A stretch of 40,485 nt of DNA from a virus (lineage: Duplodnaviria > Caudoviricetes), in the IMG/VR virus record IMGVR_UViG_3300046779_001371, positions 1 to 40,485 of that record. The stretch is one strand, 5' to 3'. Shown here piece after piece: positions 3,133 through 40,485 of this stretch. The translations under genes were made by a program, and so were the position numbers. Numbering within the stretch: the first letter of the stretch is position 1; every line of letters starts with the position of its first letter. The notes beneath the pieces are model-generated. The model was given only the letters and a program-made list of their open reading frames with translations, ran no database searches and had not been told where the DNA came from.

Positions 3133-3140
3133 TTGGGGAG

Positions 3141-3401: not shown

Positions 3402-3429
3402 TTCATTCCTTCGTTTTATCTACTACTAG

Positions 3430-3504
3430 TTGCGGAGGTGGGATTTGAACCCACGGCCTTCGGATTATGAGCCCGACGAGGTAACCGAACTCCTCTACTC
3501 CGCG
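3430..3504 (-). tRNA. Initiator tRNA-fMet (CAU)
   Basis: C1:A72 mismatch, A11:U24 pair, TCGGG-CTCATAA-TCCGA anticodon arm, GGTTCAAATCC T-loop; no encoded CCA. Confidence 0.93.
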
Positions 3505-4076: not shown

Positions 4077-4249
4077 TAGTGTCCTGTCATTGCACGCCAG
4101 ATGTGTAACGTGGCTTGCTGAAAAATGTAGAGTGCAGCAATGTTGACTGCAAGCTGAACCCCTACTTGAATCCAAGGACTTACTGAAGTTGTTTCTTTTA
4201 CAGAGACTTCCTTGAAAATTGTTTTAGTAGGACGAATCAGCGTTTTCAC
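4076..4249 (-). CDS. Small single-TM protein, 57 aa (not in ORF track)
   Basis: GTG overlaps upstream TGA and its TAA overlaps the pduO ATG; ...SPWIQVGVQLAVNIAALYIFQQATLHIWRAMTGH. Confidence 0.6.
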   Translation of the reverse strand: MKTLIRPTKTIFKEVSVKETTSVSPWIQVGVQLAVNIAALYIFQQATLHIWRAMTGH

Positions 4250-7548: not shown

Positions 7549-7927
7549 AGAAGAGTGGCTTCGTCACGCTAGGTTTGAACTAGAACTAGTTCACGAAGTC
7601 CCTGAATACGTTGAGTTTTATTTGAAGATTGTAGAAGCCTTCTGGGACTTTCAGCACGATGAGCGAACTCTATTTGCTACCCCAGAAACTATTGAAAAGC
7701 TTTTGCGTCACAAGAACCTTAGTGGGTTGACTTCAAACCCGAGTGAGTGGCGACAAGTAGGTGAAGGCATCTGGCAAAATAAACGACACCCTTTGTCATA
7801 CTCGGTTGATGGTGGTAAGTCGATTGTTACATTCCCACCACTAGACAGCAATATGAATTCATCATTGATTCATAATGGGCTTCCATCACATGTCAATGAG
7901 AAGATTGACGAACTAAAAGACCTATAG
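7535..7927 (+). CDS. Conserved phage hypothetical protein (paralogue of 607..951)
   Basis: HARFELELV...LLRHKNLSGLTSNPSEW...IWQNKR...SVDGGKS; start at ATG 7535. Confidence 0.7.
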   Translation: MELTKEEWLRHARFELELVHEVPEYVEFYLKIVEAFWDFQHDERTLFATPETIEKLLRHKNLSGLTSNPSEWRQVGEGIWQNKRHPLSYSVDGGKSIVTFPPLDSNMNSSLIHNGLPSHVNEKIDELKDL

Positions 7928-13227: not shown

Positions 13228-13599
13228 TTATGCTCCGATGAAATGCTTTACTAAGAAAGTGGTTGCAAGAGCGGCCCACAAGATGTTGAACCAAATGATG
13301 GTTGGCATTGTTTTGATGGTTGCAGACCACACCAAAAGAACACTAGTAATAAGTGCAATGATGTAGAGCCACCAAATAGAGATACCGAAGAGCAAACCAG
13401 GAATGATAATGAGTGCCTTGGTTGTAAATGCTAGGAACTCGACGGTGTTAGGGACATTCCAATACTGCTTGGTTCCCATCTTTTTGAGGGCTGGAAGCCA
13501 TTGGAAGTGCTTACGCCAACCTCCACTAAATACTTCCTCATTGCTGAGGTAGTTAGGGTCTTTGATTGTTGGGGTCTTTGTTGGGTTACTTTTCTTCAC
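13228..13599 (-). CDS. Membrane protein (3 TM)
   Basis: Hydrophobic C-terminal two-thirds; overlaps halogenase stop. Confidence 0.7.
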   Translation of the reverse strand: MKKSNPTKTPTIKDPNYLSNEEVFSGGWRKHFQWLPALKKMGTKQYWNVPNTVEFLAFTTKALIIIPGLLFGISIWWLYIIALITSVLLVWSATIKTMPTIIWFNILWAALATTFLVKHFIGA

Positions 13600-26834: not shown

Positions 26835-27172
26835 TCTTTTTCTACCAACTTCTGTTTGCGTCGTTTGAGCATCTTGTCTACTGCGGGAAGTACGAACTCG
26901 TAATGCTTGGATAACTCTAGTACATCTGCGTGGAAAGGGTTGCAACAACCATCACACATATGTTTAGTGTTGGGGTTGATCTCATCTGGGTCTGTGTGAG
27001 CGATATTGTGGGAGCAGATACGCATGATGCGTCCTACCTTGAAATCCCAAGTCTGCTTCCAATCAACCATGTGATGGTCGGAGTTGTTGTGGACGGTGCA
27101 GTACTGTCCGAGGCAGGTTCCTCTTTCGTGGGTGTTGAGTTCCTCTCCACCAACTAACGTCGCTTTTTCCAT
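26831..27172 (-). CDS. Cys/His-rich actinophage hypothetical protein
   Basis: CLGQYCTVHNNSDHHM...RICSHNIAHTDPD...HMCDGCC. Confidence 0.75.
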   Translation of the reverse strand: MEKATLVGGEELNTHERGTCLGQYCTVHNNSDHHMVDWKQTWDFKVGRIMRICSHNIAHTDPDEINPNTKHMCDGCCNPFHADVLELSKHYEFVLPAVDKMLKRRKQKLVEKE

Positions 27173-27218
27173 ACATCTAACATAGCGGTTTCTACTGACA
27201 TTGCGCTAGGGTTAGGGT

Positions 27219-27878
27219 ATGACAGTTCCACACTATGACGTAGTAATTGCAACGCCGGGCCATTCCATGGTGGCGGACTATGTGAAGTCTTTGGTCGAGA
27301 CAACCGTATGGTTGCAGGGTCAAGGGCTGACTTACCACTTCGTTTCTCAGTACTCCTCATTTGTGCCGAGTGCTAGGGAGAACACCGCTACTGGCAGTTA
27401 TGGGGCGGATTGGGAAAGTACCTCCTTTGGAGGGGGTACTTTTACCTATCGGTGGATTCTGTGGATTGATTCGGACATCTCTTGGAAGCCTGAGGATATT
27501 GGGGTTCTGATCGAGGCGGACAGGGACGTTATCGCTGGGATGATGCCTGTGAGCCGAGAGGGTCGAATTGGGGCTATGCGCTTCAACGACAAGGGGCAAC
27601 CTGTGTCTTTGCGGGGTCTGGACTTCATTATGGATGGCGACCCTGTGCAGGTAGATGGGGTGAGCTTTGGTTTCCTTCTCGTTCGCTATGGGGTTTTCGA
27701 GAAGATGGAGCGTCCGTGGTTTCGGATTCGGCAGACTTCGATTGAGGCTGTCCCCTATGCGGTGGACCTAGGGGAGGACTACTCTTGGTGCGTTGGGGCG
27801 GCGGAAGCTGGGTTTGTTATTTGGATGCACCCTTTGGTTCGGGTCGAGCATCGGAAAGAAATTATCCTAACAGTTTGA
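27219..27878 (+). CDS. GT-A fold glycosyltransferase
   Basis: VVIATP, ARE, LWIDSD (DxD), GFLLV..GVFE, GEDYSWC, VEH. Confidence 0.85.
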   Translation: MTVPHYDVVIATPGHSMVADYVKSLVETTVWLQGQGLTYHFVSQYSSFVPSARENTATGSYGADWESTSFGGGTFTYRWILWIDSDISWKPEDIGVLIEADRDVIAGMMPVSREGRIGAMRFNDKGQPVSLRGLDFIMDGDPVQVDGVSFGFLLVRYGVFEKMERPWFRIRQTSIEAVPYAVDLGEDYSWCVGAAEAGFVIWMHPLVRVEHRKEIILTV

Positions 27879-28076
27879 GAAGTTGTTCCCTTCTTGGGGA
27901 ATCTGTTATAGCACCTTCCTGTATTTCTTGCATTTCTTGCATGTGAAAGATTTTGGGACTTTTCTTTCAGGGGAAAGTTATTTGGAAGTGTGCAGCTGAA
28001 AATCTTGCAATCTTGTAATTCTATGATGGATTTGCGGTTAGGTCATATTCGGAAATAGTGTATTCAGATATAGATG

Positions 28077-28299
28077 TACTATCACGGAAAAATGAGTTTT
28101 TCGGGGTCTCTTTCCGAGATCAGCAGAGGTCGAGCTTTCGTTTGAGAAAGTGGGTCGATGAAAAATCCGTGATAGTTATTTTGAGATACTATCGCCGAAA
28201 AAAGTAAAACTTTATGAAATCCGTGATAGTACAGTTTTATTATAGAAAATCGATACTATCAGGGAAAATCTCTTAGAAAATCAAAAATCCGTGATAGTA
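28077..28299. repeat. Six alternately inverted 12-bp boxes (TCCGTGATAGTA), iteron-like; probable replication origin
   Basis: Forward AAATCCGTGATAGT at 28163, 28217, 28285; reverse TACTATCACGGA 28077, TACTATCGCCGA 28187, TACTATCAGGGA 28254; followed by very AT-rich 28300-28445. Confidence 0.75.
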
Positions 28300-28481
28300 T
28301 AACTAAAAACTAATTTATATATTGTAATATTCAATCTAATCTCTAGACGTGTATGAGAAATCCTTCTATACCCCCTAGGAATTTGGTTGAATATTTAGAT
28401 ATTTAGTTATAGTGTATAGTTATTTAGTAATATTCAATTTAGTCATTGACAGGGAACGGAATTAGGTATATGAAAAATAAC

Positions 28482-28510
28482 TTGACAACGGATATAGAGT
28501 TCGCTATAAA
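28482..28510 (+). promoter_or_regulatory. SigmaA-like promoter
   Basis: TTGACA-N17-TATAAA upstream of rightward operon. Confidence 0.75.
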
Positions 28511-28543
28511 TGATTCAATGACAAATGACAAAGGACGGTTCTA

Positions 28544-28759
28544 ATGGAACTCTGGCAATTCTGGGTACTTGCAGGGATCAATGCTGCGAGTGTGTTTCTT
28601 TCTACGATTGCTCTCTTCATGTATTCAATGTGGAGTAACAATCGAAAGAAGCGAAAGCTTTTGGAGAGCATGTTCGAGCAAGTCTTGGAAAAGGTCGAGA
28701 CAGATATTCAGTTCAGAGACATCGTTGGAAAACTAAACAAGGACGGTAATGATGAGTAG
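28544..28759 (+). CDS. Single-TM protein
   Basis: AAAGGA RBS; N-terminal TM followed by RKKRK. Confidence 0.7.
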   Translation: MELWQFWVLAGINAASVFLSTIALFMYSMWSNNRKKRKLLESMFEQVLEKVETDIQFRDIVGKLNKDGNDE

Positions 28760-29222
28760 TGCAAAAGAAGCCTTAGAGCTTTTGGGTATCAACGTTGATG
28801 ATGCCATTGAGACAGACAAGAAGCGCACCGAGACAAAACCTCGAGACCCTCGAGTTTGTCTATGTGGTCATGCTGTAAACAAGCACAACCAAATGGCTGG
28901 TGAAGTCAAGTGTGTACCAAGCCGATATTGGTGTCCATGCAAGAACCTTCGACCAGTAGTCCAAGTTGAGGACACAAGGTTGTTCTTGCGTAAGACCAAT
29001 GGACCAAATCAGGAACATGCCTTGGTTCGAGGAATTGCTGCTTCCGCTATGAATGACAAGAGCGTAAAGTGGATTGTGGAAGTCGCTTGCGACATCTGCC
29101 ACAAGACTGCTGCTGAAACTAGAATTATCCCAACGGCAGTCACTGAGTTCAAAACTGTGTCCTATGAAGCAACTGGATGGGACGCTCTAGTCTGTGAAGA
29201 CTGTTTGGAGAAGATTCGATGA
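28749..29222 (+). CDS. Cys-rich zinc-binding protein
   Basis: CLCGH..H, C...CPC, CDIC, CEDC. Confidence 0.7.
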   Translation: MMSSAKEALELLGINVDDAIETDKKRTETKPRDPRVCLCGHAVNKHNQMAGEVKCVPSRYWCPCKNLRPVVQVEDTRLFLRKTNGPNQEHALVRGIAASAMNDKSVKWIVEVACDICHKTAAETRIIPTAVTEFKTVSYEATGWDALVCEDCLEKIR

Positions 29223-29518
29223 GCCAACCTTTTGATCGCATCAGTGATGAGATTCGTATGCTAGTTGTACATGAGCGTATTTCTCCTGAACAGATGTTAG
29301 ATGTCAGTGCCATCGTGTATGCACAAACAGAGTCATGGAAAGAGGATGTTGTCCTCGAGATAAACAAACTCATCGACAACTGGGAAGCCACAATGGGTGA
29401 GGGCGATAAGTCGTTCTACTCACTTGGGCTCCGTCGAGCAATCGACATCATCACAGGACAAGACGCCTATGCTCAACTACCTATCTTGGAAACACCTGAC
29501 ACTCCAGATGAGCAATAA
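29219..29518 (+). CDS. Hypothetical protein
   Basis: ATGA coupling; YSLGLRRAIDIITG. Confidence 0.65.
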   Translation: MSQPFDRISDEIRMLVVHERISPEQMLDVSAIVYAQTESWKEDVVLEINKLIDNWEATMGEGDKSFYSLGLRRAIDIITGQDAYAQLPILETPDTPDEQ

Positions 29519-29633
29519 GCAACAAGTTGTTCTGACTAAGGAGGAGCTGGCTATCCAGAAGATTAGACAGCAGTCCATCATGGAGCGCAAGAAGAAATTT
29601 GAAGAAGCCAAGAGGAAAAAATCCAATGAGTGA
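29508..29633 (+). CDS. Small basic protein
   Basis: MSNKQQ...; overlaps both neighbours. Confidence 0.5.
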   Translation: MSNKQQVVLTKEELAIQKIRQQSIMERKKKFEEAKRKKSNE

Positions 29634-29877
29634 GATTACCTACAACGGAGACGTCGAGATGAAAATCCGACAGGTCCACTACATGGGTGAGTTCACTGGG
29701 TGGGAGGGTGAACTTCTAGTCAAGGGTCACACTTACTGTGAGGGGACTGCTCCAACATTTTGGGGAGTCCATGACCTACTGACAGAGTACATCTGGGAGC
29801 AGACGGTCAAAGATGACCATCCTGTTTTAGATCACAACTGGTTCACGAAGGATGCCAACGATAGGGGGAAAGATTGA
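29626..29877 (+). CDS. Hypothetical protein
   Basis: GAGG RBS, start MSEITY. Confidence 0.6.
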   Translation: MSEITYNGDVEMKIRQVHYMGEFTGWEGELLVKGHTYCEGTAPTFWGVHDLLTEYIWEQTVKDDHPVLDHNWFTKDANDRGKD

Positions 29878-30092
29878 GCGAATACTGGTCATGGATTCTG
29901 GCAGTTGTCGGAGTCTCGGGAATGTACTTTGTCGGAAAGAAGACCGTCTGGGGATGGTTGGTTCTTCTAACTAACGAAGTCATCTGGACTGCCTATGCTC
30001 TTGCCACAAAGCAGTATGGGTTTATCGTGATGGCTGTTGCCTATGCAACTGTCTACATCAAGAGCTTCATTGAATGGCGCAAAGAAGATTAG
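29874..30092 (+). CDS. Small 3-TM PnuC-like (half-size nicotinamide riboside transporter-like) membrane protein
   Basis: WSWILAVVGV...GKKTVWGW...NEVIW..YA...QYG...Y..SFIEWRK. Confidence 0.6.
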   Translation: MSEYWSWILAVVGVSGMYFVGKKTVWGWLVLLTNEVIWTAYALATKQYGFIVMAVAYATVYIKSFIEWRKED

Positions 30093-30094
30093 AC

Positions 30095-30289
30095 ATGCCT
30101 TACAAGTTGAACGGTGAACTAACCAATCGTTGTTCTTCCCATGGGAACAAAATGCTTTACAAGAACCATGGAACTTTGCTTGACGTTATCCTCAAGACTC
30201 AGAGAGAGCAGGGCATCAAATTGACTTGGTACAAATGTGAAGTCCACGGTGGCTATCACCTCACGAAGTGGGAGAACAAACAGACCTAA
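30095..30289 (+). CDS. Hypothetical protein
   Basis: C...K..Y...YKCEVHGGYHLTK. Confidence 0.6.
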   Translation: MPYKLNGELTNRCSSHGNKMLYKNHGTLLDVILKTQREQGIKLTWYKCEVHGGYHLTKWENKQT

Positions 30290-30480
30290 TGCCGAACCGC
30301 AAACCTGATACTGAGATTATCTTTACCGTCCGACAAGACGAAGAGTTCCCCGACTTCTGGGTCGCCGAACTTACTGTCGGAGGGGTTGAAGTTGTGACCG
30401 CACACACTGGTTCGATGAAAGATGCCATCGCAGTTTTTCATGAGTCCTTCCCTGAAGGCGGAGAGAAAAAACTCTTCTAA
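30289..30480 (+). CDS. Hypothetical protein
   Basis: TAATG coupling with upstream gene. Confidence 0.55.
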   Translation: MPNRKPDTEIIFTVRQDEEFPDFWVAELTVGGVEVVTAHTGSMKDAIAVFHESFPEGGEKKLF

Positions 30481-30695
30481 ATAGCTCGACACGCCGTTTC
30501 GAAAACACTTTTATTCAGGTAAAAACTCGGGTCGTTCAATCTACATTTCACGCCTAAAACCTGCCCTTTGGCGACCAATCTTCTTTATAGAGGGTGTGTT
30601 TCTCACACCATTTCCGAAAAAAACTTTTCAACCAATAATGTATTCTCTTTTTCGAGTAGATAGTCAAAAATCCTACTCAGAAGGACGAACCACAT

Positions 30696-31001
30696 ATGAA
30701 GAACGCAGCACTCGAGTCGTACCTCCGCAACCTGCTTGGTCAAGCAATCGGAGCCGTCATGATCGTCACTCAGACATCTGGCATCGCCTCACCTCTTGAC
30801 TTCGGTGGAAGCGAGTGGCTCCTTGTAGCCAACGCTCTTTGGGCATCAGTAATCCCTGTCGCTCTCCGCTGGGTCAACAAGAAAGACCCTGCCTTCGGAC
30901 GCATCGCTGAAGTAGCAGCAGCCGAAGTATCAACAAAGTTATCCACAGCTGCCGCGAGCGCGAAGAAAAAGCCAGTAGCTAAGAAGACCACAAAGAAGTA
31001 A
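30696..31001 (+). CDS. Holin-like membrane protein
   Basis: AALESYLR...two TMs...VALRWVNKKDPAFGR plus basic tail. Confidence 0.6.
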   Translation: MKNAALESYLRNLLGQAIGAVMIVTQTSGIASPLDFGGSEWLLVANALWASVIPVALRWVNKKDPAFGRIAEVAAAEVSTKLSTAAASAKKKPVAKKTTKK

Positions 31002-31006
31002 ACAAC

Positions 31007-31051
31007 TTTGGGAAGGCGGGCCAAACCAAGCGGCCCGTCTCCCAAATTTTT
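31007..31051 (+). terminator. Hairpin/terminator
   Basis: TTTGGGAAGGCGGGCC...GGCCCGTCTCCCAAA followed by TTTTT. Confidence 0.6.
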
Positions 31052-31068
31052 ACCCCTAGGAGACAAAG

Positions 31069-31269
31069 ATGGCAATGACCCCTCAAGAGCTAGAAGCCCA
31101 CGTTCAGACTGAGCTCGCTCTCAAAGCTGAGATTGAAGAACTCGTCCGAGTCCTCCGTGACTCCGAGTACCGCACCAAAACCGAGAAGGCATACTACGCT
31201 GACCAACTTGCGGCTAAGCGTCTAGAACTTCGTGAGCACCTAGGGCTGAACCCTCGCCCAACTAAGTAG
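31069..31269 (+). CDS. Hypothetical coiled-coil protein
   Basis: GGGAG RBS, 66 aa. Confidence 0.65.
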   Translation: MAMTPQELEAHVQTELALKAEIEELVRVLRDSEYRTKTEKAYYADQLAAKRLELREHLGLNPRPTK

Positions 31270-31277
31270 GGGTAAAA

Positions 31278-32225
31278 ATGTCCCTCGAACTTTTCGGCGA
31301 TAAAGCCGAGGAAGAATCAACCGTCCCACTCATCGAGTCCCCGACGGATATGCGTCCCGACCTTTCCGAGTACGGCATCGTCGAACACGACCGCGGCATC
31401 TGCGAAGACACCTACGAGAACCGCAGCCTCCTTAGACAAAGCGGATTCCAATGGGTACCTGTCTACACAGAGACGGGCAATGCCACAGGACTAATCGAGG
31501 CTCGCTCCCTCGAACAAATGAAAGAGCGTCGACTACTTTCACTTCAGGGCAAGCGGGCCCTACTAGCTGATCCACTTTCAAACAACTCTGAATACTTGAC
31601 GGGCCTCGACCTGATCGTTGACAGCGAGGCATGCAAGGTTGTTCCACCTTGGGTACTTGCTGCCACCCGCGCTTATGTAAAAGAGCAGGAAGCTGGTGGA
31701 CCTCCAACGGCGAAGCGAGCGCCGAAGCCAATGCCTACCCGCTGTCGAGAGTTCACCTCTGAGGGAATCCGCTGCATGCTTTGGGCATCGGGCAACATCA
31801 AGGACGACGGCTTGTGCCGCATGCACCTGGGTAAAAATCGTAAGACGGGCGCGGACATTGAACGGGCAAGAGCCAAGCTCATGCAGTCAGCTCCTTACGC
31901 TGTCGACACATTAGAACAACTTATGGAGACGGCTGTCTCTGAGCCAGTCAAGCTCAAAGCTGCAACGGAAATCCTTGACCGTGCTGGCGTGCGTGCTGGC
32001 ATGGATATCGGAATCGACGTCGACATCAAGGACTCACGCTCACCTGCCCAGATTATTGCGGAACGGCTTGCCCGCCTGAAGAACGGTGCCGCGATGATCG
32101 AAACTCAGTTTGCTGACACAAACGTACAAGATGCGGAAGTTGTCATCGAAACCCCAGAAATTTTTACCCCCCAGCCAGAACCAGAAGACACGATCTCAGC
32201 TGAAGAGCTGGAGGAGCTACAATGA
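31278..32225 (+). CDS. Probable terminase small subunit
   Basis: C-x9-C-x13-CRMH zinc motif (HGGxSTG-like), then helical AVDTLEQLM...VKLKAATEILDRAG oligomerisation segment and acidic tail. Confidence 0.6.
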   Translation: MSLELFGDKAEEESTVPLIESPTDMRPDLSEYGIVEHDRGICEDTYENRSLLRQSGFQWVPVYTETGNATGLIEARSLEQMKERRLLSLQGKRALLADPLSNNSEYLTGLDLIVDSEACKVVPPWVLAATRAYVKEQEAGGPPTAKRAPKPMPTRCREFTSEGIRCMLWASGNIKDDGLCRMHLGKNRKTGADIERARAKLMQSAPYAVDTLEQLMETAVSEPVKLKAATEILDRAGVRAGMDIGIDVDIKDSRSPAQIIAERLARLKNGAAMIETQFADTNVQDAEVVIETPEIFTPQPEPEDTISAEELEELQ

Positions 32226-32449
32226 CAAGAGAACAACTCATCCAAGATGCGCAGCAGCTAGCGGATCGGCTTGCTGAAGATATCCCGTTGTGCCGCACCC
32301 GCGACGAACACATCCGCGTAACGGCACGCGCTAATGAAGCCGCCAACCTCGTGAACGGCCTGCGTAATATGGAAGTCCCGCTCTACCAGTTCGAGTCAGC
32401 CACATTCACGGTAGCGGACGACCTCAGAGACGGCACGGTCAATGCCTAG
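32222..32449 (+). CDS. Hypothetical protein
   Basis: GGAGGAG RBS, ATGA overlap. Confidence 0.65.
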   Translation: MTREQLIQDAQQLADRLAEDIPLCRTRDEHIRVTARANEAANLVNGLRNMEVPLYQFESATFTVADDLRDGTVNA

Positions 32450-32518
32450 GTCAAACGGCAAGTGCACGCAGGAGACTGACCCAACGGATTGGGTTGACGG
32501 CGTGGAGGAGAGCCTCTA

Positions 32519-32683
32519 ATGGAAACGGTACTGCGTGATTGCTTCTGGTGCGGCGAGACCTATGACATGGGTAAAAATGAACGGTGCCCAAGATGCTCAA
32601 CGGATGTTGATACCCGTGCCATCAAGATCATTGACAGCTCAGCTACTGACGGCGAGAACGAAACAACTTCTTCAACCATCTGA
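32519..32683 (+). CDS. Small zinc-ribbon protein, 54 aa (not in ORF track)
   Basis: GGAGGAG RBS; CFWC...CPRC. Confidence 0.55.
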   Translation: METVLRDCFWCGETYDMGKNERCPRCSTDVDTRAIKIIDSSATDGENETTSSTI

Positions 32684-32818
32684 AGGCGGCCCGCACATTA
32701 GCGGTGAATAGCCAGAAGTACATCCCAATAACGGATATGAAAGTCGCGGCAAGCGGCAAGAGATTATGGACCTCTAACGGATCGCCTGGAACGGTGTGAG
32801 CGTAGATGGTCAAAATTT

Positions 32819-32977
32819 TTACCCCATCAACCAGTGCGACAGCGAGATCCAAACAACTCCTCCAACGGAGAAGACGGCGAGCCATCTGCGATCAGTTCGA
32901 CCGAAGAGCATGACGGCGAGAGCGGCGAGGAACATGAGGTGGTCTGCCTCTGTGAAGAAATGAATAACGGATTGCAT
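32819..32977 (-). CDS. Small two-TM membrane protein, 52 aa (not in ORF track)
   Basis: MQSVIHFFTEADHLMFLAALAVMLFGRTDRRWLAVFSVGGVVWISLSHWLMG; TATGAT -10 exactly six nt before ATG. Confidence 0.5.
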   Translation of the reverse strand: MQSVIHFFTEADHLMFLAALAVMLFGRTDRRWLAVFSVGGVVWISLSHWLMG

Positions 32978-33406
32978 ACTTCAATCATAAGCGGCGAGCG
33001 CCTATATCCCGCGTTGTACACGGTATCCGAACGTATGAACTTACACCTAACATGCAACGGACTATATGCAGGAAGATGACATAACGGGATGCTGCCCAGG
33101 TTTAGTAACGTTTCACAACTTCCAAATAACTTTACGGAGCTGAAGCGGCCCGCGGATCGTGCGATCGCACGAAAAAGCTGCAAGAAGATGTAACCGATAG
33201 AGCTCAGCTTACGATCCAACATCCAAACAACTGTTACTGACGGGTAGCTTGAGCTGAAGGGGGGTAAAAATTTTCGATCCATCCGACGCAGCGGCCCGAG
33301 AAGAGAATAAGTTGTTTGAATGTTGGAGCTCCAGAGCTCTGTACCTTTTTCGCTAACGGACATAAATCTGTTGTTTAGATGCGATATTTGCGGAAAATCC
33401 GTCAAA

Positions 33407-33530
33407 ACGGCTTGCTAAATGACAGAAACGTGTTGTTTAGTGACGGCTTGCGAAACCTAACAAGACGGCTTGCAAAACCTAACAACGGCTTGCGAAAACT
33501 TGACAAGGGGTACTAGACTAGGTTTGTCAA
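33407..33530 (+). repeat. Four ACGGCTTGC boxes (three in tandem ~21-bp units) plus TTGACAA-N17-TTGTCAA inverted repeat
   Basis: ACGGCTTGC at 33407, 33443, 33465, 33485; unit ACGGCTTGCRAAACCTAACAA; inverted repeat 33500-33530. Confidence 0.8.
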
Positions 33531-33629
33531 CACGGCGTGCCGACAAACTGAAGAGCGGCCCGCGTAACGGAAGTTATTTGGATGTTGCCCGCCGCAGCTA
33601 GCTCAGCGGATCGGATTCGAAAATAAAAC

Positions 33630-33658
33630 TTGACGGCGTGAGATTAGCGCTCTATGAT
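33630..33658 (+). promoter_or_regulatory. SigmaA-like promoter (leaderless)
   Basis: TTGACG-N17-TATGAT-N7-ATG(33666). Confidence 0.7.
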
Positions 33659-33665
33659 AAACGGC

Positions 33666-33959
33666 ATGATAGAAGCACTCATACTATGGAACCTCGTCGG
33701 AGTACGGAATGACATACGCGGCGAGGATGATCACAGCGAATGGATTATATTTCCGCTACTCGTTATCGGACCATTGCTGTGGCCCATCGGCCTGATGTTG
33801 ACGGCTCGCAAGTACTACAAGCTGAGCTGGAGACGGAGCATTCTCTCAAGCGCTGTAGTAACGGTGTGGATATTGTGGTTGGTACCCGTGGTGTACTTTG
33901 CGATCGCAGCTGTGCTGTTTGTCGCAACCGTGTGGTACTTTGGAAATGACGAAGGGTAA
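33666..33959 (+). CDS. Membrane protein
   Basis: 2-3 hydrophobic helices. Confidence 0.65.
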   Translation: MIEALILWNLVGVRNDIRGEDDHSEWIIFPLLVIGPLLWPIGLMLTARKYYKLSWRRSILSSAVVTVWILWLVPVVYFAIAAVLFVATVWYFGNDEG

Positions 33960-33961
33960 AA

Positions 33962-34201
33962 ATGAAAGCGACAAGCAAGAGATCAGAATTCGCTCGAGAC
34001 ATTGATGAGCTGATGGATGAGTACGTTCCTACAGAACATAAATTCAACGGGATGCATATGCACGTCTCAAAGAAGCACAGGGGTGTCGACATCACAACAG
34101 GTCCAGTATCTGCAGGTGCCCTGACTTATGACAAAGATACTGGAGCTATCAAGCTTTACGATGGCAGTCACTGGATCGATCTTTCAGCAGTTACAAAATA
34201 A
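33962..34201 (+). CDS. Hypothetical protein
   Basis: GAAGGG RBS; GALTYDKDTGAIKLYDGSHW. Confidence 0.6.
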   Translation: MKATSKRSEFARDIDELMDEYVPTEHKFNGMHMHVSKKHRGVDITTGPVSAGALTYDKDTGAIKLYDGSHWIDLSAVTK

Positions 34202-34224
34202 AAAAAAATATTTTGCGACACGAC

Positions 34225-34254
34225 TTGACATTGCTGAAAAAGTAGTTCTATAAT
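34225..34254 (+). promoter_or_regulatory. Consensus sigmaA early promoter with A-tract UP element
   Basis: TTGACA-N18-TATAAT, A-tract at 34200-34210. Confidence 0.85.
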
Positions 34255-34302
34255 AAAACCAACCTAGAAACCTCTAGGGAAAATGACGAAAGGAAAACCC
34301 AA

Positions 34303-34752
34303 ATGGGATACACACACTATTTTTCAAAGGTTGCAAACTCACGCGATGACGCACTGAGATTCGAAATGTTTTCAATTGGCGTGGCCCGCATTATCAAATA
34401 CGCGGCAGAGTTCGACGGGATCGAAATTGCGGACGGGCTTGGCGAAGAGCTAGGCAAGTGGGAAGCAGATACCGAAATTGTTCGCTTCAATGGTTACGGC
34501 GAGGATTCTCACGAAACTTTTCTTTTCTCAATCGACGGCGCGGATTCGTTCAACTTCTGCAAGACGGCACGCAAGCCTTACGACGCTGTGGTCACGGCCT
34601 GCCTGATTCATATGAAGGACATCTACGGTGACCTCGTGAGTATCGGCTCGGATGGTGACTGGTCAGAGTGGCAAGACGGAGCACGCCTCTACCGCAACGC
34701 AACGGGCTTGACCGCTGCGAACCCTATGGTGTCTGAGAAGGTATCGGCATGA
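34303..34752 (+). CDS. Conserved phage early hypothetical protein
   Basis: MGYTHYF...FNG...HETF...FNFCKTARKPYDAVVTACL...SDGDW. Confidence 0.75.
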   Translation: MGYTHYFSKVANSRDDALRFEMFSIGVARIIKYAAEFDGIEIADGLGEELGKWEADTEIVRFNGYGEDSHETFLFSIDGADSFNFCKTARKPYDAVVTACLIHMKDIYGDLVSIGSDGDWSEWQDGARLYRNATGLTAANPMVSEKVSA

Positions 34753-35012
34753 CTAGAAAGGGCGGTGCGAACGGCGAGGTTATGGACGCCACCTACACAG
34801 TGACACGGGTAGCGGTGCTACCTAACTGCGACTTCTGCGCACGGTTCAACATTGAAGAGACGGCACGCTATGACGCTGTGACTTCATACGGCCCGTGGGC
34901 CAATATGTGCCAGACCTGTTTTGAGATGCATGGCACGGGAAGGCTTGGACTTGGCAAGGGCCAACGGCTCGAGCTGGAAGATGAGCTGCACGATCACATC
35001 GGTCACGCGTAG
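34749..35012 (+). CDS. Zinc-binding hypothetical protein
   Basis: CDFC...YDAVT..GPWANMCQTCF..HG.G.LG.GKGQ. Confidence 0.7.
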   Translation: MTRKGGANGEVMDATYTVTRVAVLPNCDFCARFNIEETARYDAVTSYGPWANMCQTCFEMHGTGRLGLGKGQRLELEDELHDHIGHA

Positions 35013-35031
35013 CGGGTAAAAATTTGGATCC

Positions 35032-35069
35032 AGCAAGGGCCTCACGGATAACCGTGGGGCTTTTGCTTT
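35032..35069 (+). terminator. Intrinsic terminator
   Basis: AGCAAGGGCCTCACGG-ATAA-CCGTGGGGCTTTTGCT-TT. Confidence 0.75.
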
Positions 35070-35080
35070 ACCCTAGATGC

Positions 35081-35248
35081 GTGGGTAAAAAAGAACGGGA
35101 TGCGCTGAAGCGACTTATCAAAGGCATCCCAGGTATGTATGTGCAGAACCAGAAAGCACAGGTCTTCGAGGATAAGCGCACTCGAAGAAATCGCTCACGC
35201 CCAAATAAAAAACGAAACGCAATACAAGATGGGCTTGACACTGACTAA
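35081..35248 (+). CDS. Small basic protein
   Basis: TACCCT -10 six nt before GTG; AQVFEDKRTRRNRSR. Confidence 0.55.
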   Translation: MGKKERDALKRLIKGIPGMYVQNQKAQVFEDKRTRRNRSRPNKKRNAIQDGLDTD

Positions 35249-35264
35249 AAAAGTATGATAGTTT
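35235..35264 (+). promoter_or_regulatory. SigmaA-like promoter
   Basis: TTGACA-N18-TAGTTT with extended TG. Confidence 0.6.
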
Positions 35265-35301
35265 TTCATCACCATCAGCAATAACGACGAAAGGATTTCA
35301 G

Positions 35302-35508
35302 ATGGCTAAGCAAGTTTATTTTGTAATCGCTGTTGATTTAGATAAGGGCGTGCCATTTATAGATGACACAGTTCTTACAGCAAGATTTGCCAGTGATGAG
35401 CAAGTCTGGGACACAGACACCGAACAGTGGGAGTCTGATGATGAGGACTCAACTTTGTATCTCAAAGCGTTAGAGATTCTCAATACAGTTCCACTAGGCA
35501 AGGAGTAG
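35302..35508 (+). CDS. Acidic hypothetical protein
   Basis: GACGAAAGGA RBS. Confidence 0.7.
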   Translation: MAKQVYFVIAVDLDKGVPFIDDTVLTARFASDEQVWDTDTEQWESDDEDSTLYLKALEILNTVPLGKE

Positions 35509-35511
35509 GAG

Positions 35512-35667
35512 ATGCCTAAGTTCATTGTTAGAGCAACCCTCACTAAAGATTATGAAATCGAAGTTGAGGCTGAAGACGAGATGAAAGCGATCGAATCTCT
35601 AGACGATTGGATTGCCGACGACTTCGAGGATTATGAAGTTGGCGCTCGCTGGGATTTTGAGGCTTGA
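35512..35667 (+). CDS. Small acidic protein, 51 aa (not in ORF track)
   Basis: AAGGAG RBS; MPKFIVRATLTKDYEIEVEAEDEMKAIE... Confidence 0.65.
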   Translation: MPKFIVRATLTKDYEIEVEAEDEMKAIESLDDWIADDFEDYEVGARWDFEA

Positions 35668-35693
35668 CATAAAAGTCATAAAGGTTATACAAT
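35664..35693 (+). promoter_or_regulatory. SigmaA-like promoter
   Basis: TTGACA-N18-TACAAT. Confidence 0.8.
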
Positions 35694-35728
35694 AGTCTTG
35701 CAACACCAAAACGACGAAAGGATACAAA

Positions 35729-36394
35729 ATGCCAAACTGGGTAAGCAACTCACTAACCATCACTGGTAGTGCGGAAGACATTGCAAACATTAGAGAACAA
35801 CTGGCACGACCAAAGCCAGTTCCAGCAAGCGAGGAAGAACCTTACGAACAGCGTGAGATTTCTTTCTGGAACATCAAGCAACCTCCTGCGGAACACTACG
35901 ACGAGTATTGGGGAACGCACGGCTTCTCTGGTGGCGTAGCCACAGGGCAGACAACCTACAACTGGTATAACTTCAACAACCGAGAGTGGGGGACGAAGTG
36001 GGATGCCTGTGATGTTTATTTTGAACAGCGTGGGGACAACGAACTGTCTTACAGTTTCAACACAGCGTGGTCGCCTCCAATCTTGTTCGGCACGCTCTCG
36101 GAGCAGTATCCAAATGCCATCATCACTTTGCGGTATTGCGAAGAGCAAGGTTGGGGCGGAGAACTCAAATACGAGAATGGCGAGGAAGAGGAAGTCGAGT
36201 CTTGGGACATTCCAGAGAGCCACGCCGAATGGGTGGCATTGGAAGACGAGTGCCGTTCTTGCTCTTGGGGTAGCGAAGACCCTGAGGACTGGTATGACGA
36301 CTGCCCAGACAAAGCGGAGAAGATGAAAGAACTGCTGGAGGAAACTCAGCAGGCGGTCGATAAGTTCGAGGACATCTCAGAACTCACAGTGTGA
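35729..36394 (+). CDS. DUF1281/YubB-like ferredoxin-fold protein
   Basis: MPNWVSNSL, NWYNFN..EWGTKWD, FNTAWSPP. Confidence 0.8.
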   Translation: MPNWVSNSLTITGSAEDIANIREQLARPKPVPASEEEPYEQREISFWNIKQPPAEHYDEYWGTHGFSGGVATGQTTYNWYNFNNREWGTKWDACDVYFEQRGDNELSYSFNTAWSPPILFGTLSEQYPNAIITLRYCEEQGWGGELKYENGEEEEVESWDIPESHAEWVALEDECRSCSWGSEDPEDWYDDCPDKAEKMKELLEETQQAVDKFEDISELTV

Positions 36395-36478
36395 GGCTCG
36401 GCGTGGGGTGGGGGTAAAAAGCCCTCACCCTTACGCACGGCTTGTATGATTGACAACGGAACGAAGGAGAAGATTCAA

Positions 36479-36829
36479 ATGGGTAAAAAAGTTGAGATTC
36501 CAGAAGAGCTTGGCGTGCCAAGCATCGAGATCATTGAACCGCAAGAGGTAAAAAGATCGCTAGGTTATTTCGCTGCCGATGGTAACTACGGTGATGCTTC
36601 TGGGCTGCTGGTGCTTGAAACAAGTTACTGGCGTGAGATTGACTGGGAAATCTTGGAGTCAGCATCTGATTCACAGCGTGCAAATGTTGCTCGACTCATC
36701 ACAGAGTCTTACGAAAAGCCTGAAGACCTCGCTGCGCTCTACACAAAGTTTGAGCAGTATGGCATTGACCTAGATGACTTTATGCCTCGTGAGCCCCTCC
36801 AGCTTGACAATGATCAGGCCATAGGGTAA
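36479..36829 (+). CDS. Acidic hypothetical protein
   Basis: GAAGGAG RBS; YFAADGNYGDA. Confidence 0.65.
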   Translation: MGKKVEIPEELGVPSIEIIEPQEVKRSLGYFAADGNYGDASGLLVLETSYWREIDWEILESASDSQRANVARLITESYEKPEDLAALYTKFEQYGIDLDDFMPREPLQLDNDQAIG

Positions 36830-37020
36830 AAATAGATGTGCGCGGGTTTCTTCGTCGTTATCCTGCGCCAGACCTGAACAAGTCCTAAAACTGTTCATCT
36901 CTTTTCTCAAAGAGTTCAGCCCCCTCCGACTTGCCCCCAAGTTGTCGAGGGGGTTGTTCTTTGTCAGAGGCGTCCCCCAAAATGGGGACAAGAAACTTTC
37001 AAAAATTATTTGGTTCTAAC

Positions 37021-37050
37021 TTGACAAGTGCAGGAAAGTCGTGCAATACT
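37021..37050 (+). promoter_or_regulatory. SigmaA-like promoter
   Basis: TTGACA-N18-AATACT with extended TG; upstream A/T tract. Confidence 0.6.
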
Positions 37051-37094
37051 TTTCTCAATGCGAAAGCAGAAAACAAAATGACGAAAGGATACCC

Positions 37095-37550
37095 ATGTTA
37101 GATAACACGAAAGATGTTCAAGGCGTTGCTGTTTATGCCGAGTTCCGTAAGCCAGGAGCGACCATGCAGATTATGGTCACACCAGATGGCTACACCACAG
37201 ATGGTAAGGAAGTAAAGGCAAATCTGTATCGCCGAGTTGTGACTCCAACTTCTCCAAAGAAACAATGGCGCAACTCATCTATCAGCAAGAACGCGATCGC
37301 GTCACTAGAGGGCGCACCACTTCTTGATGAAAACAAAGAGGCGTTTGTTTCAGAGCGTCTGTCTTTCTCAACTGATTTGTTTGATGCCATCAACAATGGT
37401 GGCTGGCAGATTGTCAAAGAGCCTTTCTTGGTTGAAGTATCAAAGAAAGACTTGGAAGATGTAATGACAGGAAAGACTCCTAACAAGATGCTGTATCGCA
37501 TCAACCTCACAAGAAACTCACTTGGCTTTCCTGCCGAGTTGATTGCATAA
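37095..37550 (+). CDS. Hypothetical protein
   Basis: GACGAAAGGA RBS, start MLDNTK. Confidence 0.7.
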   Translation: MLDNTKDVQGVAVYAEFRKPGATMQIMVTPDGYTTDGKEVKANLYRRVVTPTSPKKQWRNSSISKNAIASLEGAPLLDENKEAFVSERLSFSTDLFDAINNGGWQIVKEPFLVEVSKKDLEDVMTGKTPNKMLYRINLTRNSLGFPAELIA

Positions 37551-37567
37551 AGGACAAAGGGATAAAA

Positions 37568-38608
37568 ATGGAAAAGACACTAAACGAGCGTTACTCATCA
37601 TTAGGTGGCGACAAGACCCTGTGGGGTTTGATTTCAGAAGTTGTATCTCAAAGCGTTAGCGAGAGTGCAACAACTTCACTAAGTGCATCAGTTACACCAA
37701 CAGGTCGTTATGTTGCTCGCGCATCAGGTGATGAACGCGCACCTCGCAAGTCAAAGCAGGTTATTACTGTGGATAGCATGGAGGGCGAAGAAGCCTATGT
37801 TCGACCAAATGGCGAAAAGTATTTTGGTCGCATGTGGGGTGGTCACTCAGATGTGATGGCACTTCGCAAAGCACGCGAAATGACTGCAAAGACTTTTTCA
37901 GGTGAGGGTGGTTCTGCCATGTTCTCACTTATCTATGGCGCACCGGGTTGCGGAAAGACCGCGATGGTTGAAGCAGCGTTTGGTGACGAAGTTGTTACCT
38001 TGATGGGAACTGGCGACACCGAAGTTGCAGACATGATTGGTGGCTATGTGCAGACACCATCAGGTGGTTTCGATTGGGTAGATGGTGGATTGGTAGATGC
38101 CGCGATCAATGGAAAAGTTTATTTCATTGACGAGATTGGTTTGATTGACCCTAAGGTTCTTTCACTTGCTTATGGCTTGATGGACGGACGCCGAGAGTTA
38201 GTCATTACTGCAAATCCAGAGCGCGGAACTATCAAGGCGCACCCGAACTTTTATGTAGTTGCCGCGACTAACCCAAATGCACCGGGAGTGCGTTTGTCAG
38301 AGGCGTTGCTATCTCGCTTTACTGTGCAGGTAGAAATGACTACTGATTGGGGCTTGGCAAAAAAGCTCGGAGTTCCTGCACCATTGGTGACAGCATCACA
38401 GAACCTTGCGAAGAAGCAAGTGTCTAACGAAGTTTCATGGTCGCCACAGATGCGCGAACTAATTGCGTTCCGTGACATAGCAACAACTTTCGGAAATGCG
38501 TTCGCGCTATCAAATCTCCTAGCGAGCGCACCAGAAATTGACCGACCAGTTGTATCAGATGTCCTCACTCGCGCTTATGGCGAGGAGTGCAAGCCAGCCA
38601 AAATCTAA
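37568..38608 (+). CDS. MoxR/CbbQ-type AAA+ ATPase
   Basis: Walker A GAPGCGKT, WVDG, Walker B FIDEI, AATNP, EALLSRF, sensor II QMRE. Confidence 0.92.
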   Translation: MEKTLNERYSSLGGDKTLWGLISEVVSQSVSESATTSLSASVTPTGRYVARASGDERAPRKSKQVITVDSMEGEEAYVRPNGEKYFGRMWGGHSDVMALRKAREMTAKTFSGEGGSAMFSLIYGAPGCGKTAMVEAAFGDEVVTLMGTGDTEVADMIGGYVQTPSGGFDWVDGGLVDAAINGKVYFIDEIGLIDPKVLSLAYGLMDGRRELVITANPERGTIKAHPNFYVVAATNPNAPGVRLSEALLSRFTVQVEMTTDWGLAKKLGVPAPLVTASQNLAKKQVSNEVSWSPQMRELIAFRDIATTFGNAFALSNLLASAPEIDRPVVSDVLTRAYGEECKPAKI

Positions 38609-38667
38609 TCCCTGTTCTGGCTGGGGTCAGGGAGGGGGAGGCATGGGTATCGCCTCCCCCAACCTCC

Positions 38668-38697
38668 TTGACAAATCAGGGAAAGCAATAATAGAAT
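38668..38697 (+). promoter_or_regulatory. SigmaA-like promoter
   Basis: TTGACA-N18-TAGAAT, preceded by GC hairpin at ~38629-38667. Confidence 0.75.
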
Positions 38698-38735
38698 TGA
38701 CATGTCGAGGACAACGACAGAAATGGAAATGATAA

Positions 38736-40485
38736 ATGGGACACATAAAGATTTCTGCAACTAGAGCAGAGAACACTCCTGCCGAGTGGCTGGGAGTTGG
38801 AAAGACGATTGGCGAACTTGTAAATGTTTGGTCAGAGCGTCACGACATAATCGCGTATGTAGGTGAGGGTGCAGGTGGCCCGGCACCAGCATGCTACAAC
38901 CCTGCGCTCGCCGAAGTTGAAGTCAATACAGCAGTAGCGTTTGGCAAAGCAACAACACCAGAAATGGTTGGCGACCTATCACAGCGTTCTCAGCAATACG
39001 AGTTCCCTAAGGCGACAGGTGCGATTATGCACGAAGCCTTTCACGCAAAGTTTTCTATCTTCGACATGGAGTCTGCATACAAGACTCTAGCGAAAGATGA
39101 ATACGAAGCCTTGATGTTGCTAGAGGAGGGTCGTATCGAAACACAGGGCGTATGGCTCAACCCACTTTCAAAAAACTTCTTGCGTTCTTGCGCGATCGAA
39201 ATTGTTCTTGCAGATGCGAAAGAGTCTTTCGGCGAAAGCACCTCCACAGTTGCGTCAAGCGCACAGGGAGTTGGACTTATCTATGCTCGCGTAGATGCTG
39301 GCATTTTAGATGCGACAGATGTCAAGGGCATTACAGATGTTATTGACAAGCACTTAGGTGAAGAACTTGTTAGCAAGTTGCGCGGGATTTCAAAAACTTT
39401 CCGCGAGAGCATCATCAGTTATCAGAAAGAAGCAGAGAGCGTTTTGTATCCACTTGCAAAAGAGTGGGCAAAACTTATTCGTGATGCGAAAGAAGAAAAG
39501 GGCGAACAAGACAGCGCGAGTGCATCAGAGATGATGCAAGCCTTGATGGACGCACTTGAAGAAGCATCAGAGAACACAGCGATTTCAGTTGGTGATGCAC
39601 TTGCCGAACAAGAGTTGGACGAAGCCAACAAAGAGATGGCAAAGCAAAAGTCCAATAAGGCACAAGAGCAAAACGCAAATAAAGAAACTGCGTCAAAGGT
39701 TTTTGCAAAGAGTTCAGGTGAGGGTGGTGGAGGCACTAACTCTCGCTTGATTGAGAAGCGCAACCCAACTAGCAAGGAAAGAGTTGCCGCTGTTCAGATT
39801 GCAAAGATGTTGGAAAGAGCGAAATACCGCGAGCGCGACCTCACCGAAGTTTCAAGTGTGACGCCTCCCGGAAGATTACGCACTCGACAGATTATTCAGG
39901 GCAAGGCACTAAAAGAGCGCGGAGTCACTAAGCCAGTTGAAGCATGGCGTCGTAATGTTCGTAAGCACACCGACGACCCAACACTCACAGTTGGCGTGAT
40001 GGTAGATGTTTCAGGTTCTATGGGCGACGCTATGCAACCTATGGCGACAACTGCATGGGTAATGTCAGAGGCGGTTCGCCGAGTGCAGGGCAAGACCGCG
40101 ATGGTTTATTTCGGTCAAGATGTTTTCCCAACTCTAAAGGCTGGACAGCACTTGTCAGAGGTGCAGGTTTATACGGCACAAGACAGCACGGAGGAGTTCG
40201 ACAAGGCGTTCCGCGCACTTGATGGCGCACTCAACTTGCTAAACGGCAGAGGCGCACGACTCCTTGTCGTTGTGTCAGATGGACATTACCGAAGTGACCA
40301 GCGAGAGATGGCACGCGATTGGACACGCAAGTGCGGAGAGGCTGGCGTAGCAGTTCTGTGGTTGCCGTTCGATAACGGACACAGCGCGAGCCGTATCCTC
40401 AATGAGCGAGATGGCGTGATAATGTCAGGAGTGCTAGACCCTGTGTCAGCCTCCATTGAGATAGGCAAGGCATCAGAGCGAGTTC
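38736..40485 (+). CDS. vWA-domain protein with N-terminal HExxH metallopeptidase-like domain (MoxR partner; 3' truncated, not in ORF track)
   Basis: Open frame from MGHIKIS...; IMHEAFH, LEEGRIE, MIDAS VMVDVSGSM, LLVVVSDG. Confidence 0.88.
   Translation, partial: MGHIKISATRAENTPAEWLGVGKTIGELVNVWSERHDIIAYVGEGAGGPAPACYNPALAEVEVNTAVAFGKATTPEMVGDLSQRSQQYEFPKATGAIMHEAFHAKFSIFDMESAYKTLAKDEYEALMLLEEGRIETQGVWLNPLSKNFLRSCAIEIVLADAKESFGESTSTVASSAQGVGLIYARVDAGILDATDVKGITDVIDKHLGEELVSKLRGISKTFRESIISYQKEAESVLYPLAKEWAKLIRDAKEEKGEQDSASASEMMQALMDALEEASENTAISVGDALAEQELDEANKEMAKQKSNKAQEQNANKETASKVFAKSSGEGGGGTNSRLIEKRNPTSKERVAAVQIAKMLERAKYRERDLTEVSSVTPPGRLRTRQIIQGKALKERGVTKPVEAWRRNVRKHTDDPTLTVGVMVDVSGSMGDAMQPMATTAWVMSEAVRRVQGKTAMVYFGQDVFPTLKAGQHLSEVQVYTAQDSTEEFDKAFRALDGALNLLNGRGARLLVVVSDGHYRSDQREMARDWTRKCGEAGVAVLWLPFDNGHSASRILNERDGVIMSGVLDPVSASIEIGKASERV

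What the first reader, a model, noticed from the sequence alone, without database searches (positions are those of the whole stretch)
31047..36832. Thirteen exact copies of GGGTAAAAA confined to 5.8 kb around the putative terminase/early region
Seen (manual count): + strand at 31270, 31829, 32569, 33262, 33954, 35014, 35083, 36412, 36481, 36824; - strand at 31047, 32161, 32816. Most extend to GGGTAAAAAT. I saw none in the first 30 kb, and far less than one is expected by chance. Many sit on gene starts, stops or in a hairpin loop, and others are written into codons. Inference: a regional array of binding sites for one protein, such as stoperator-like repression of early genes, packaging or DNA-entry signals, or partition-like loading sites. 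Not explained by any annotated feature.
Basis: partly seen in the sequence, partly recalled or inferred. Interest (0 to 1): 0.8.

Follow-up and report, generated by a model that had tools for sequence, protein, structure and literature searches.

The report
Protein-docking words in phage early DNA
A large lake phage, likely of actinobacteria, repeats one 9-letter DNA word through its early-gene region, mostly pointing with the genes, and two restriction-type target words that are nearly absent from that region survive within about 45 bases of it, likely because an unidentified phage protein covers each copy.

Summary
Confirmed: 13 exact GGGTAAAAA at the stated places (0.32 expected). The 5.8-kb limit is a contig artefact: in a complete relative 22 of 25 copies span 21 kb from the terminase-small-like gene through the early block. 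Codons are chosen to spell the word (17 of 21 G-K-K/N in early genes, 3 of 40 elsewhere). It flips strand where genes flip, and its 5' letters shift by lineage (GG, AG, CC, AA before GTAAAAA). In the early zone GATC and AGCT occur at 6.6 and 9.2 per kb within 45 bp of the word but 0.13 and 0.56 beyond 100 bp, and they follow the word when a site is gained. Contig depth roughly doubles near 33.2 kb in two of three runs, hinting at the genome end. Best reading: oriented sites for a phage protein covering about 100 bp, most likely stoperator-like brakes on early transcription, with shielding as a side effect. This scan noted the word and its islands before in related genomes; nine literature searches found no description.

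The parts
31047..31055 (-). Word copy 1, non-coding, directly after a strong hairpin and just upstream of the 66-aa gene; counterpart at -250 in L119/G006
31270..31278 (+). Word copy 2, between the stop of the 66-aa gene and the ATG of gene 1; counterpart at -13 to -17 in relatives
31829..31837 (+). Word copy 3, inside gene 1 (L-G-K-N); shared with L038 and L039, absent in G001 and G004
32161..32169 (-). Word copy 4, antisense inside the low-confidence tail of gene 1, read as I-F-T-P; counterpart near +900 in many relatives
32569..32577 (+). Word copy 5, inside a 54-aa zinc-ribbon-like ORF
32816..32824 (-). Word copy 6, non-coding block
33262..33270 (+). Word copy 7, centre of a cassette flanked by AAYAACTT-type boxes, GATC, AGCT and GCGGCCCG; coincides with the estimated depth step
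33954..33962 (+). Word copy 8, overlapping the ATG of a 79-aa ORF
35014..35022 (+). Word copy 9, just after a stop codon and before a strong hairpin
35083..35091 (+). Word copy 10, codons 2-4 of a 55-aa basic ORF; counterpart at +3418 in G001
36412..36420 (+). Word copy 11, G-run paired in a hairpin stem with TAAAA in the loop; counterpart at +5031 in G001
36481..36489 (+). Word copy 12, codons 2-4 of a 116-aa ORF; in G001 and G004 the copy sits upstream of the same gene instead
36824..36832 (+). Word copy 13, supplies the stop codon of the 116-aa ORF; counterpart at +5454 in G001
31278..32225 (+). Gene 1, 315 aa, likely terminase small subunit; homolog of gene 1 of Microbacterium phages Big4 and Cece (named TerS in Cece)
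   Evidence: fold support weak
32700..33650 (.). Repeat-rich, mostly non-coding block holding AAYAACTT/AAGTTRTT boxes, GCGGCCCG and dense GATC/AGCT
33120..33527 (.). Contig depth rises about 1.9-fold here in run X1 (both strains) and 1.8-fold near here in X7, not in X6: possible physical genome end or pac site (hint only)
34225..38697 (+). Near-consensus TTGACA/TANNNT promoter-like sites of the early block (34225, 35235, 35664, 37021, 38668)
34300..40485 (.). Early-gene zone depleted of 4-bp palindromes except beside the word
37568..40485 (+). AAA ATPase and VWA genes: a gap in the array here and in close relatives, not its end

Best explanation
The word is kept by selection across the early-gene block and mostly points with transcription, and it is likely the binding site of an unidentified phage protein that would cover about 100 bp around each copy and would act as a one-way brake on host RNA polymerase, damping early genes later in infection. 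Shown: array, codon-level selection, strand flips with gene direction, lineage-wide letter shifts, 45-bp palindrome islands. Inferred: that a protein binds, that it is phage-encoded, that it blocks elongation, and that its cover lets GATC and AGCT survive in DNA that otherwise purges them because it likely enters the cell first.
For: Selection at DNA level: 17 of 21 G-K-[KN] in early genes spell the word (about 3% expected from codon use) against 3 of 40 elsewhere and 0 of 11 in lineages without it; antisense [IFLV]-F-T-[PLHQR] 21 of 26 (related genomes are not independent). Direction: minus-strand copies lie at or in the leftward operon after the early block in G001, G004, G006, G007, G009, G021, and a leftward TTGACA promoter-like site at +1.1 to +1.25 kb faces the copy at +900 in 12 of 18 relatives scanned. 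Several copies sit 10-50 bp after a terminator-like hairpin. Placement at gene ends and between genes matches the description of stoperators (PMC9283540, PMC13313380, passages). 38 of 64 gene-1 loci with 8 kb or more carry 8 or more GTAAAAA cores, 521 of 588 on the plus strand, with lineage-wide 5' letters, as expected of a co-evolving phage reader; three likely host chromosomes hold only 4-7 copies, fewer than the reversed control. Footprint: pooled over five genomes, GATC 41 and AGCT 57 in 6,209 bp within 45 bp, against 7 and 31 in 55,352 bp beyond 100 bp, also inside coding DNA; where one genome has a site and a relative lacks it, 11 of 24 cases have more palindromes with the site, 1 fewer, 12 ties. 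Arrays without islands (L068, L045, L139, L143) show that shielding is not the array's only job.
Against: No reader was found and no repressor is annotated in G001. The two-HTH protein has the same predicted recognition helices in GG, AG and CC lineages, differs in one AG lineage, and is present in phages without the word. The leftward promoter was not found in this window, so its three minus copies are unexplained by direction. An automatic nearest-gene tally gives only 132 of 166 copies co-oriented (noisy ORF calls). Distance to promoters is not fixed. A repressor made after entry would come late to shield incoming DNA. Island density is about twice neutral in this window and in G001, more than passive tolerance predicts.
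Confidence: 0.4

Rival explanations
1. The word loads a protein that travels in the virion, or is made at once, and coats the first-entering terminal DNA; protection from nucleases is the main job and orientation only lets RNA polymerase pass.
For: Sharp, roughly symmetric 45-bp islands. Islands appear mainly where a palindrome is purged in the zone but not genome-wide, also around variant words (18 of 44 loci at uncorrected p<0.05). The purge starts about 3 kb after gene 1, near the depth step, and ends at +19 to +22 kb, like the 17,669-bp terminal repeat of Big4 and restriction-sensitive first-step DNA of T5/BF23 (PMC10644984, 10.1101/866236, passages).
Against: 6 of 13 window copies lie left of the depth step, outside the purged zone. 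Arrays persist in lineages with no islands. Islands cover well under a fifth of the zone. A DpnII-family nuclease was found in only 1 of 301 genomes of the likely host order and D12-type methylases in 21 of 301. Two-step entry is untested.
Confidence: 0.25
2. The copies are terminase-small-subunit sites that mark the genome end and guide cutting or duplication of the long terminal repeat, possibly gated by adenine methylation of nearby GATC as at the P1 pac site (recalled).
For: The array begins at the terS-like gene; the estimated depth step (33,230-33,280) falls on copy 33262; the richest cassettes surround it; DNA wrapping round TerS is a published model (PMC7617512, one passage). A phage Dam-family gene is present in 3 of 23 records searched, all of the window's clade, and in a fourth clade member.
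Against: No gene-1 column separates GG from AG lineages, and near-identical zinc-finger regions go with different words. Copies run 20 kb and follow gene direction. TerS would not explain a purge limited to the early zone. G008 has GATC islands with no Dam hit, and AGCT islands occur without GATC. Run X6 shows no step.
Confidence: 0.2
3. A host protein reads the word (a nucleoid protein such as Lsr2, or paused RNA polymerase).
For: A host protein would be present at entry; the A-tract and AAAAAT resemble minor-groove and -10-like elements (recalled); the promoter scan scored two copies as -10 boxes.
Against: No enrichment or strand pattern in three likely host chromosomes; exact, lineage-specific 5' letters; no fixed spacing to TTGACA.
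Confidence: 0.08
4. The word is read in RNA, as a nuclease or translation signal in early messages (like T4 RegB sites, recalled).
For: Mostly on the coding strand; 4 of 13 window copies touch a start codon.
Against: Antisense copies are conserved in coding DNA; copies lie behind terminators; in copy 36412 the G-run is paired in a stem; double-stranded palindrome islands are symmetric around it.
Confidence: 0.07

Closest known systems
Stoperators of Cluster A mycobacteriophages (L5, TipsytheTRex) and Cluster CA Rhodococcus phages
   Same: Twenty or more short asymmetric sites, oriented with transcription, between genes or overlapping gene ends, differing between relatives (PMC9283540, PMC13313380, passages).
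   Different: 9-10 bp rather than 13-14; limited to the early/terminal block; many copies inside codons; no repressor identified; palindrome islands are not described in the passages read; termination untested.
First-step-transfer DNA in the long terminal repeat of T5/BF23
   Same: Long terminal early block with strong host promoters, a repeat-rich non-coding region, and restriction sites that matter only there (PMC10644984, 10.1101/866236, passages; 10.64898/2026.04.02.716235, abstract and discussion).
   Different: No dispersed polar word with islands is described in what I read; two-step entry is not shown for this family; A1/A2 homologs were not searched.
pac/TerS sites of headful phages (SPP1, Sf6; P1 pac with Dam-methylated GATC, recalled)
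   Same: Repeated sites in and beside the terS gene, GATC clusters, a depth step just downstream.
   Different: pac regions span a few hundred bases (recalled), not 20 kb, and gene-1 residues do not track the word.
Repeated intergenic motifs of Microbacterium clusters EC, EG, EI
   Same: Asymmetric, similarly oriented repeats of unknown function in actinophages (PMC7302621, passages).
   Different: Those are 18-30 bp, intergenic and at a set distance from start codons; this word is short and written into codons on both strands.

Membership tests
Cluster A-type stoperator system | Many copies of one asymmetric site | tested here: met
   13 in the window, 22 of 25 within 21 kb in G001
Cluster A-type stoperator system | Orientation follows transcription | tested here: met
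   Strand flips with the leftward operon in six genomes; 10 of 13 in the window; three minus copies unexplained here
Cluster A-type stoperator system | Sites 13-14 bp, spread over the genome, intergenic or at gene ends | tested here: not met
   9-10 bp, one 17-24 kb block, many inside codons
Cluster A-type stoperator system | Cognate HTH plus Stoperator-domain immunity repressor | tested here: inconclusive
   No such hit among 143 G001 proteins in Pfam; a two-HTH protein exists but does not track the word; no targeted search with a Cluster A repressor was run
Cluster A-type stoperator system | Repressor-dependent, orientation-dependent termination | not testable with these tools
   Needs a reporter or RNA-end data
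T5-like first-step-transfer region | Long direct terminal repeat holding the earliest genes | tested here: inconclusive
   17,669 bp in Big4; here only a depth step in X1 and X7, not X6
T5-like first-step-transfer region | Zone-limited lack of restriction-type sites | tested here: met
   Palindrome counts fall from about +3 kb to +19-22 kb in most genomes examined, not in G008
T5-like first-step-transfer region | Two-step injection | not testable with these tools
   No cultured phage-host pair
TerS-recognised pac/end signal | Site at the physical DNA end, in or near terS | tested here: inconclusive
   Depth step estimated on copy 33262, from contig depths only
TerS-recognised pac/end signal | TerS sequence co-varies with its site | tested here: not met
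   Best GG-versus-AG column 0.83 and confounded with clade; a small specificity change could be missed
Host chromosome-architecture word (KOPS/Chi-like) | Enriched and strand-skewed in the host chromosome | tested here: not met
   4-7 copies per 1.3-1.5 Mb, control 9-12, in three candidate hosts; the true host is inferred

The most novel reading that the evidence does not exclude
A family-wide addressing system in which a phage protein, carried in with the DNA, docks on oriented words along the first-entering terminal repeat and shields 100-bp patches from host nucleases, so sharply that its footprint and each lineage's restriction pressure can be read from genome sequence alone.
Probability: 0.25. 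Interest if true: 0.85.

Novelty: new variant of a known kind. Interest (0 to 1): 0.68.

Why it matters
How lytic phages with long terminal repeats protect and later silence their first-entering genes is open even for T5 (10.64898/2026.04.02.716235, discussion). Here a short word, natural variants of it, and a sharply bounded 100-bp zone give a ready bait and readout for finding the protein, in phages that likely infect acI Actinobacteria. Avoided-word islands could also serve as a general way to map protein footprints in uncultured phages.

Tried and rejected
Chance or composition: rejected. Confinement to 5.8 kb: contig artefact. Host architecture word: rejected. Fixed-distance activator or -10 box: no fixed spacing. 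Gene 1 as reader: not supported; its fold searches gave only weak TerS-like helical matches and left the N-terminal domain unassigned. Two-HTH protein as reader: not supported; the 65-aa HTH has near-identical helices in GG and AA lineages. Phage N6_N4, C5 and D12 methylases: none in G001-G004. My first assumption that the genome end lies just before gene 1, as in Big4, is not borne out by depth or by the purge boundary. General relief for all palindromes near the word: weak beyond GATC, AGCT, GGCC, ACGT. DNA-level gain/loss test: only 7 events, p=0.06. Paired-word scan of viral contigs: the 119 loci were not analysed. Rfam over 27,000-40,485: no match. No RNA holder listed. The soil phages Big4, Cece, Racecar and DSL-LC01 lack the word in the stretches read. 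Literature searches listed no paper on this word; subscription papers and all supplements were not seen.
Full report
Observation. Ten extend to GGGTAAAAAT. The window is the whole record held, a 40.5-kb piece of a large tailed phage with a ribonucleotide reductase, tryptophan halogenases, endolysins and an AAA/VWA pair. Its cobalamin adenosyltransferase is closest to acI Actinobacteria, so that host is inferred, not shown.

Setting. The 315-aa ORF at 31278 is a homolog of gene 1 of Microbacterium phages Big4 and Cece, named terminase small subunit in Cece. In Big4 it opens a 17,669-bp direct terminal repeat that ends where rightward early genes meet a leftward operon. PHROGs and fold searches give only weak TerS support. 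Downstream in the window lie a repeat-rich non-coding block and small genes behind near-consensus promoters.

Extent. In G001 (136 kb, rated complete) 22 of 25 copies lie from 17 bp before gene 1 to +21.3 kb. G004 is similar; at least three of its outlying copies are duplicates from a 24-kb assembly overlap. The AAA/VWA genes are a gap in this clade, so the window's array is cut by the contig end. At least 8 of 13 window copies have positional counterparts, and one has moved from upstream of a gene into its codons 2-4.

Selection. In early genes of GG-word genomes, 17 of 21 G-K-[KN] tripeptides use the codons that spell the word, against about 3% expected, 3 of 40 elsewhere and 0 of 11 in 20 control loci; the antisense frame gives 21 of 26. 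Identical contexts were counted once, but related genomes still inflate n.

Family. Among 64 distinct gene-1 loci with at least 8 kb of sequence, 38 carry 8 or more GTAAAAA cores (521 of 588 on the plus strand) and 15 have the GG form 7 or more times. Other lineages use AG, CC or AA before the core, or other A-rich words. The 7-letter core is noisier: upstream controls hold 0-8 copies. Exact GG arrays fall within one 46-row group of a quick gene-1 tree, mixed with AG lineages (the careful tree did not finish). Three candidate host chromosomes hold 4-7 copies, below the reversed control.

Direction. Copies turn to the minus strand at or inside the leftward operon in G001, G004, G006, G007, G009 and G021, and back to plus in the next rightward operon in most of them. 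A conserved leftward promoter-like site faces the copy at +900 in 12 of 18 relatives scanned, but I could not find it in this window. An automatic tally gives 132 of 166 copies co-oriented with the nearest called ORF, with spurious ORFs among the misses. Antisense copies in codons, copies behind terminators and a copy with its G-run paired in a stem point to reading in DNA.

Palindrome islands. Earlier notes of this scan reported GATC/AGCT clustering in relatives; I tested it. In this window 23 of 39 AGCT and 15 of 30 GATC of the region lie within 75 bp of a copy (shift test p 0.001-0.004). From 34,300 on there are 4 and 4 in 368 bp within 45 bp, against 5 GATC and 2 AGCT in 5,413 bp beyond 100 bp. 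Pooled over five genomes the density is 6.6 and 9.2 per kb within 45 bp, about 1 at 45-100 bp, and 0.13 and 0.56 beyond, in coding DNA as well. GATC, AGCT, GGCC and ACGT rank first to fourth among all 4-mers. Where one genome has a site and a relative lacks it, 11 of 24 cases have more palindromes with the site, 1 fewer, 12 ties (nominal p 0.0007, events partly shared); the DNA-level version had 7 events and p 0.06. Islands show at p<0.05, uncorrected, in 18 of 44 loci, including AG, AA and GGAAAAAAA words; most of the other 26 either do not purge the palindrome or lack it wholly, and a few have too few copies. AAYAACTT boxes tend to sit 35-50 bp either side. Against simple tolerance, island density is about twice neutral here and in G001, and near neutral for GATC in G004, G006 and G031.

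Genome end. Palindrome depletion begins about 3 kb after gene 1 and ends at +19 to +22 kb in most genomes, not in G008. In run X1, which may be the source, the main strain's contig depth goes from about 265 to 525 and a second strain's from 75 to 143; linear mixing puts the step at 33,230-33,280, on copy 33262. X7 steps 15.3 to 27.7 near here; X6, from the same study as X7, does not; X3, X8 and X20 were too thin. Contig depth is flat per contig, so this is a hint. If right, six window copies lie outside the repeat.

Reader. Gene-1 residues do not separate GG from AG lineages. A two-HTH protein upstream of the putative portal gene keeps its helices across GG, AG and CC words, differs in AG lineage L075 and exists in Big4 and Cece. 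A phage Dam-family gene occurs in 3 of 23 records, all of the window's clade, and in G031; most of the others are incomplete, its specificity is untested, it is not among the 58 window ORFs scanned, and G008 has GATC islands without it. DpnII-family nucleases were found in 1 of 301 genomes of the likely host order, and a Lake Biwa study found no methylated motifs in seven Actinobacteria bins (10.1101/380360, passages), so the source of the purge is open; a phage nuclease is possible.

Mechanism. I commit to an oriented site for a phage protein covering about 100 bp, acting as a stoperator-like brake on early transcription, with shielding as a side effect (0.40). The array exists without islands, extends outside the purged zone and follows transcription. 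Rivals: a protective coat present at entry (0.25), TerS and repeat processing (0.20), a host reader (0.08), an RNA signal (0.07). That some protein covers the word is much more likely than any one of these jobs.

Comparison and verdict. It works most like Cluster A stoperators (PMC9283540, PMC13313380, passages) laid over a T5-like terminal early block (PMC10644984, 10.1101/866236, passages; 10.64898/2026.04.02.716235, abstract and discussion) but fails membership on site length, extent and lack of a known repressor. PMC7302621, PMC10611076 and PMC7617512 were seen as passages only; the DSL-LC01 paper's main text has no occurrence of 'motif' or 'terminal repeat'. P1 pac methylation, RegB and enzyme names are recalled. 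Nine searches listed no description of the word; supplements were not read. New variant of a known kind, interest 0.68.

Noticed in passing
window 27880-28520: AT-rich non-coding stretch (38% GC over 28,001-29,000) with three AAATCCGTGATAGT repeats, inverted copies and a 31-nt inverted repeat: likely replication origin.
   Followed up: no
window 1-40485: TTAA is wholly absent from 40 kb, CCGG occurs 8 times and GGCC 8 times in the first 31 kb; relatives keep TTAA. Other lineages lack GATC, AGCT or both throughout the stretches read.
   Followed up: partly
window 607-951 and 7472-7927: Two ORFs match the Thoeris inhibitor Tad3 family.
   Followed up: no
window 13586-16739: Two tandem tryptophan halogenase genes; nearby class II ribonucleotide reductase (23654-25696) and cobalamin adenosyltransferase (3495-4175).
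   Followed up: no
G001 +1234, G004 +1243 and ten other relatives: Conserved leftward promoter-like site pointing antisense into gene 2 and the terS-like gene; replaced or lost in this window.
   Followed up: partly
L021:5620-6150 (G001): Phage Dam-family methyltransferase gene restricted to the window's clade among records searched.
   Followed up: partly
window 33403-33505: Four to five tandem ACGGCTTGC repeats at 20-22 bp spacing; strains differ by deletions and duplications here.
   Followed up: no
window 30978-39836: GCGAGCGC and GCGGCCCG are also over-represented in the early zone across the family.
   Followed up: no
L173, L106, L178, L192: Other lineages carry different dominant words (TTAGTAGCA with 12 plus and 10 minus copies, TTGCTATCAA, AACTACGGAA) without GATC/AGCT islands.
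   Followed up: partly
window 31278-31700: The N-terminal domain of gene 1 (about residues 17-138) is modelled confidently but matched no named fold; it was not folded alone.
   Followed up: partly
window 3061-3504: Three tRNA genes (Gln, Thr, Met) on the minus strand.
   Followed up: no
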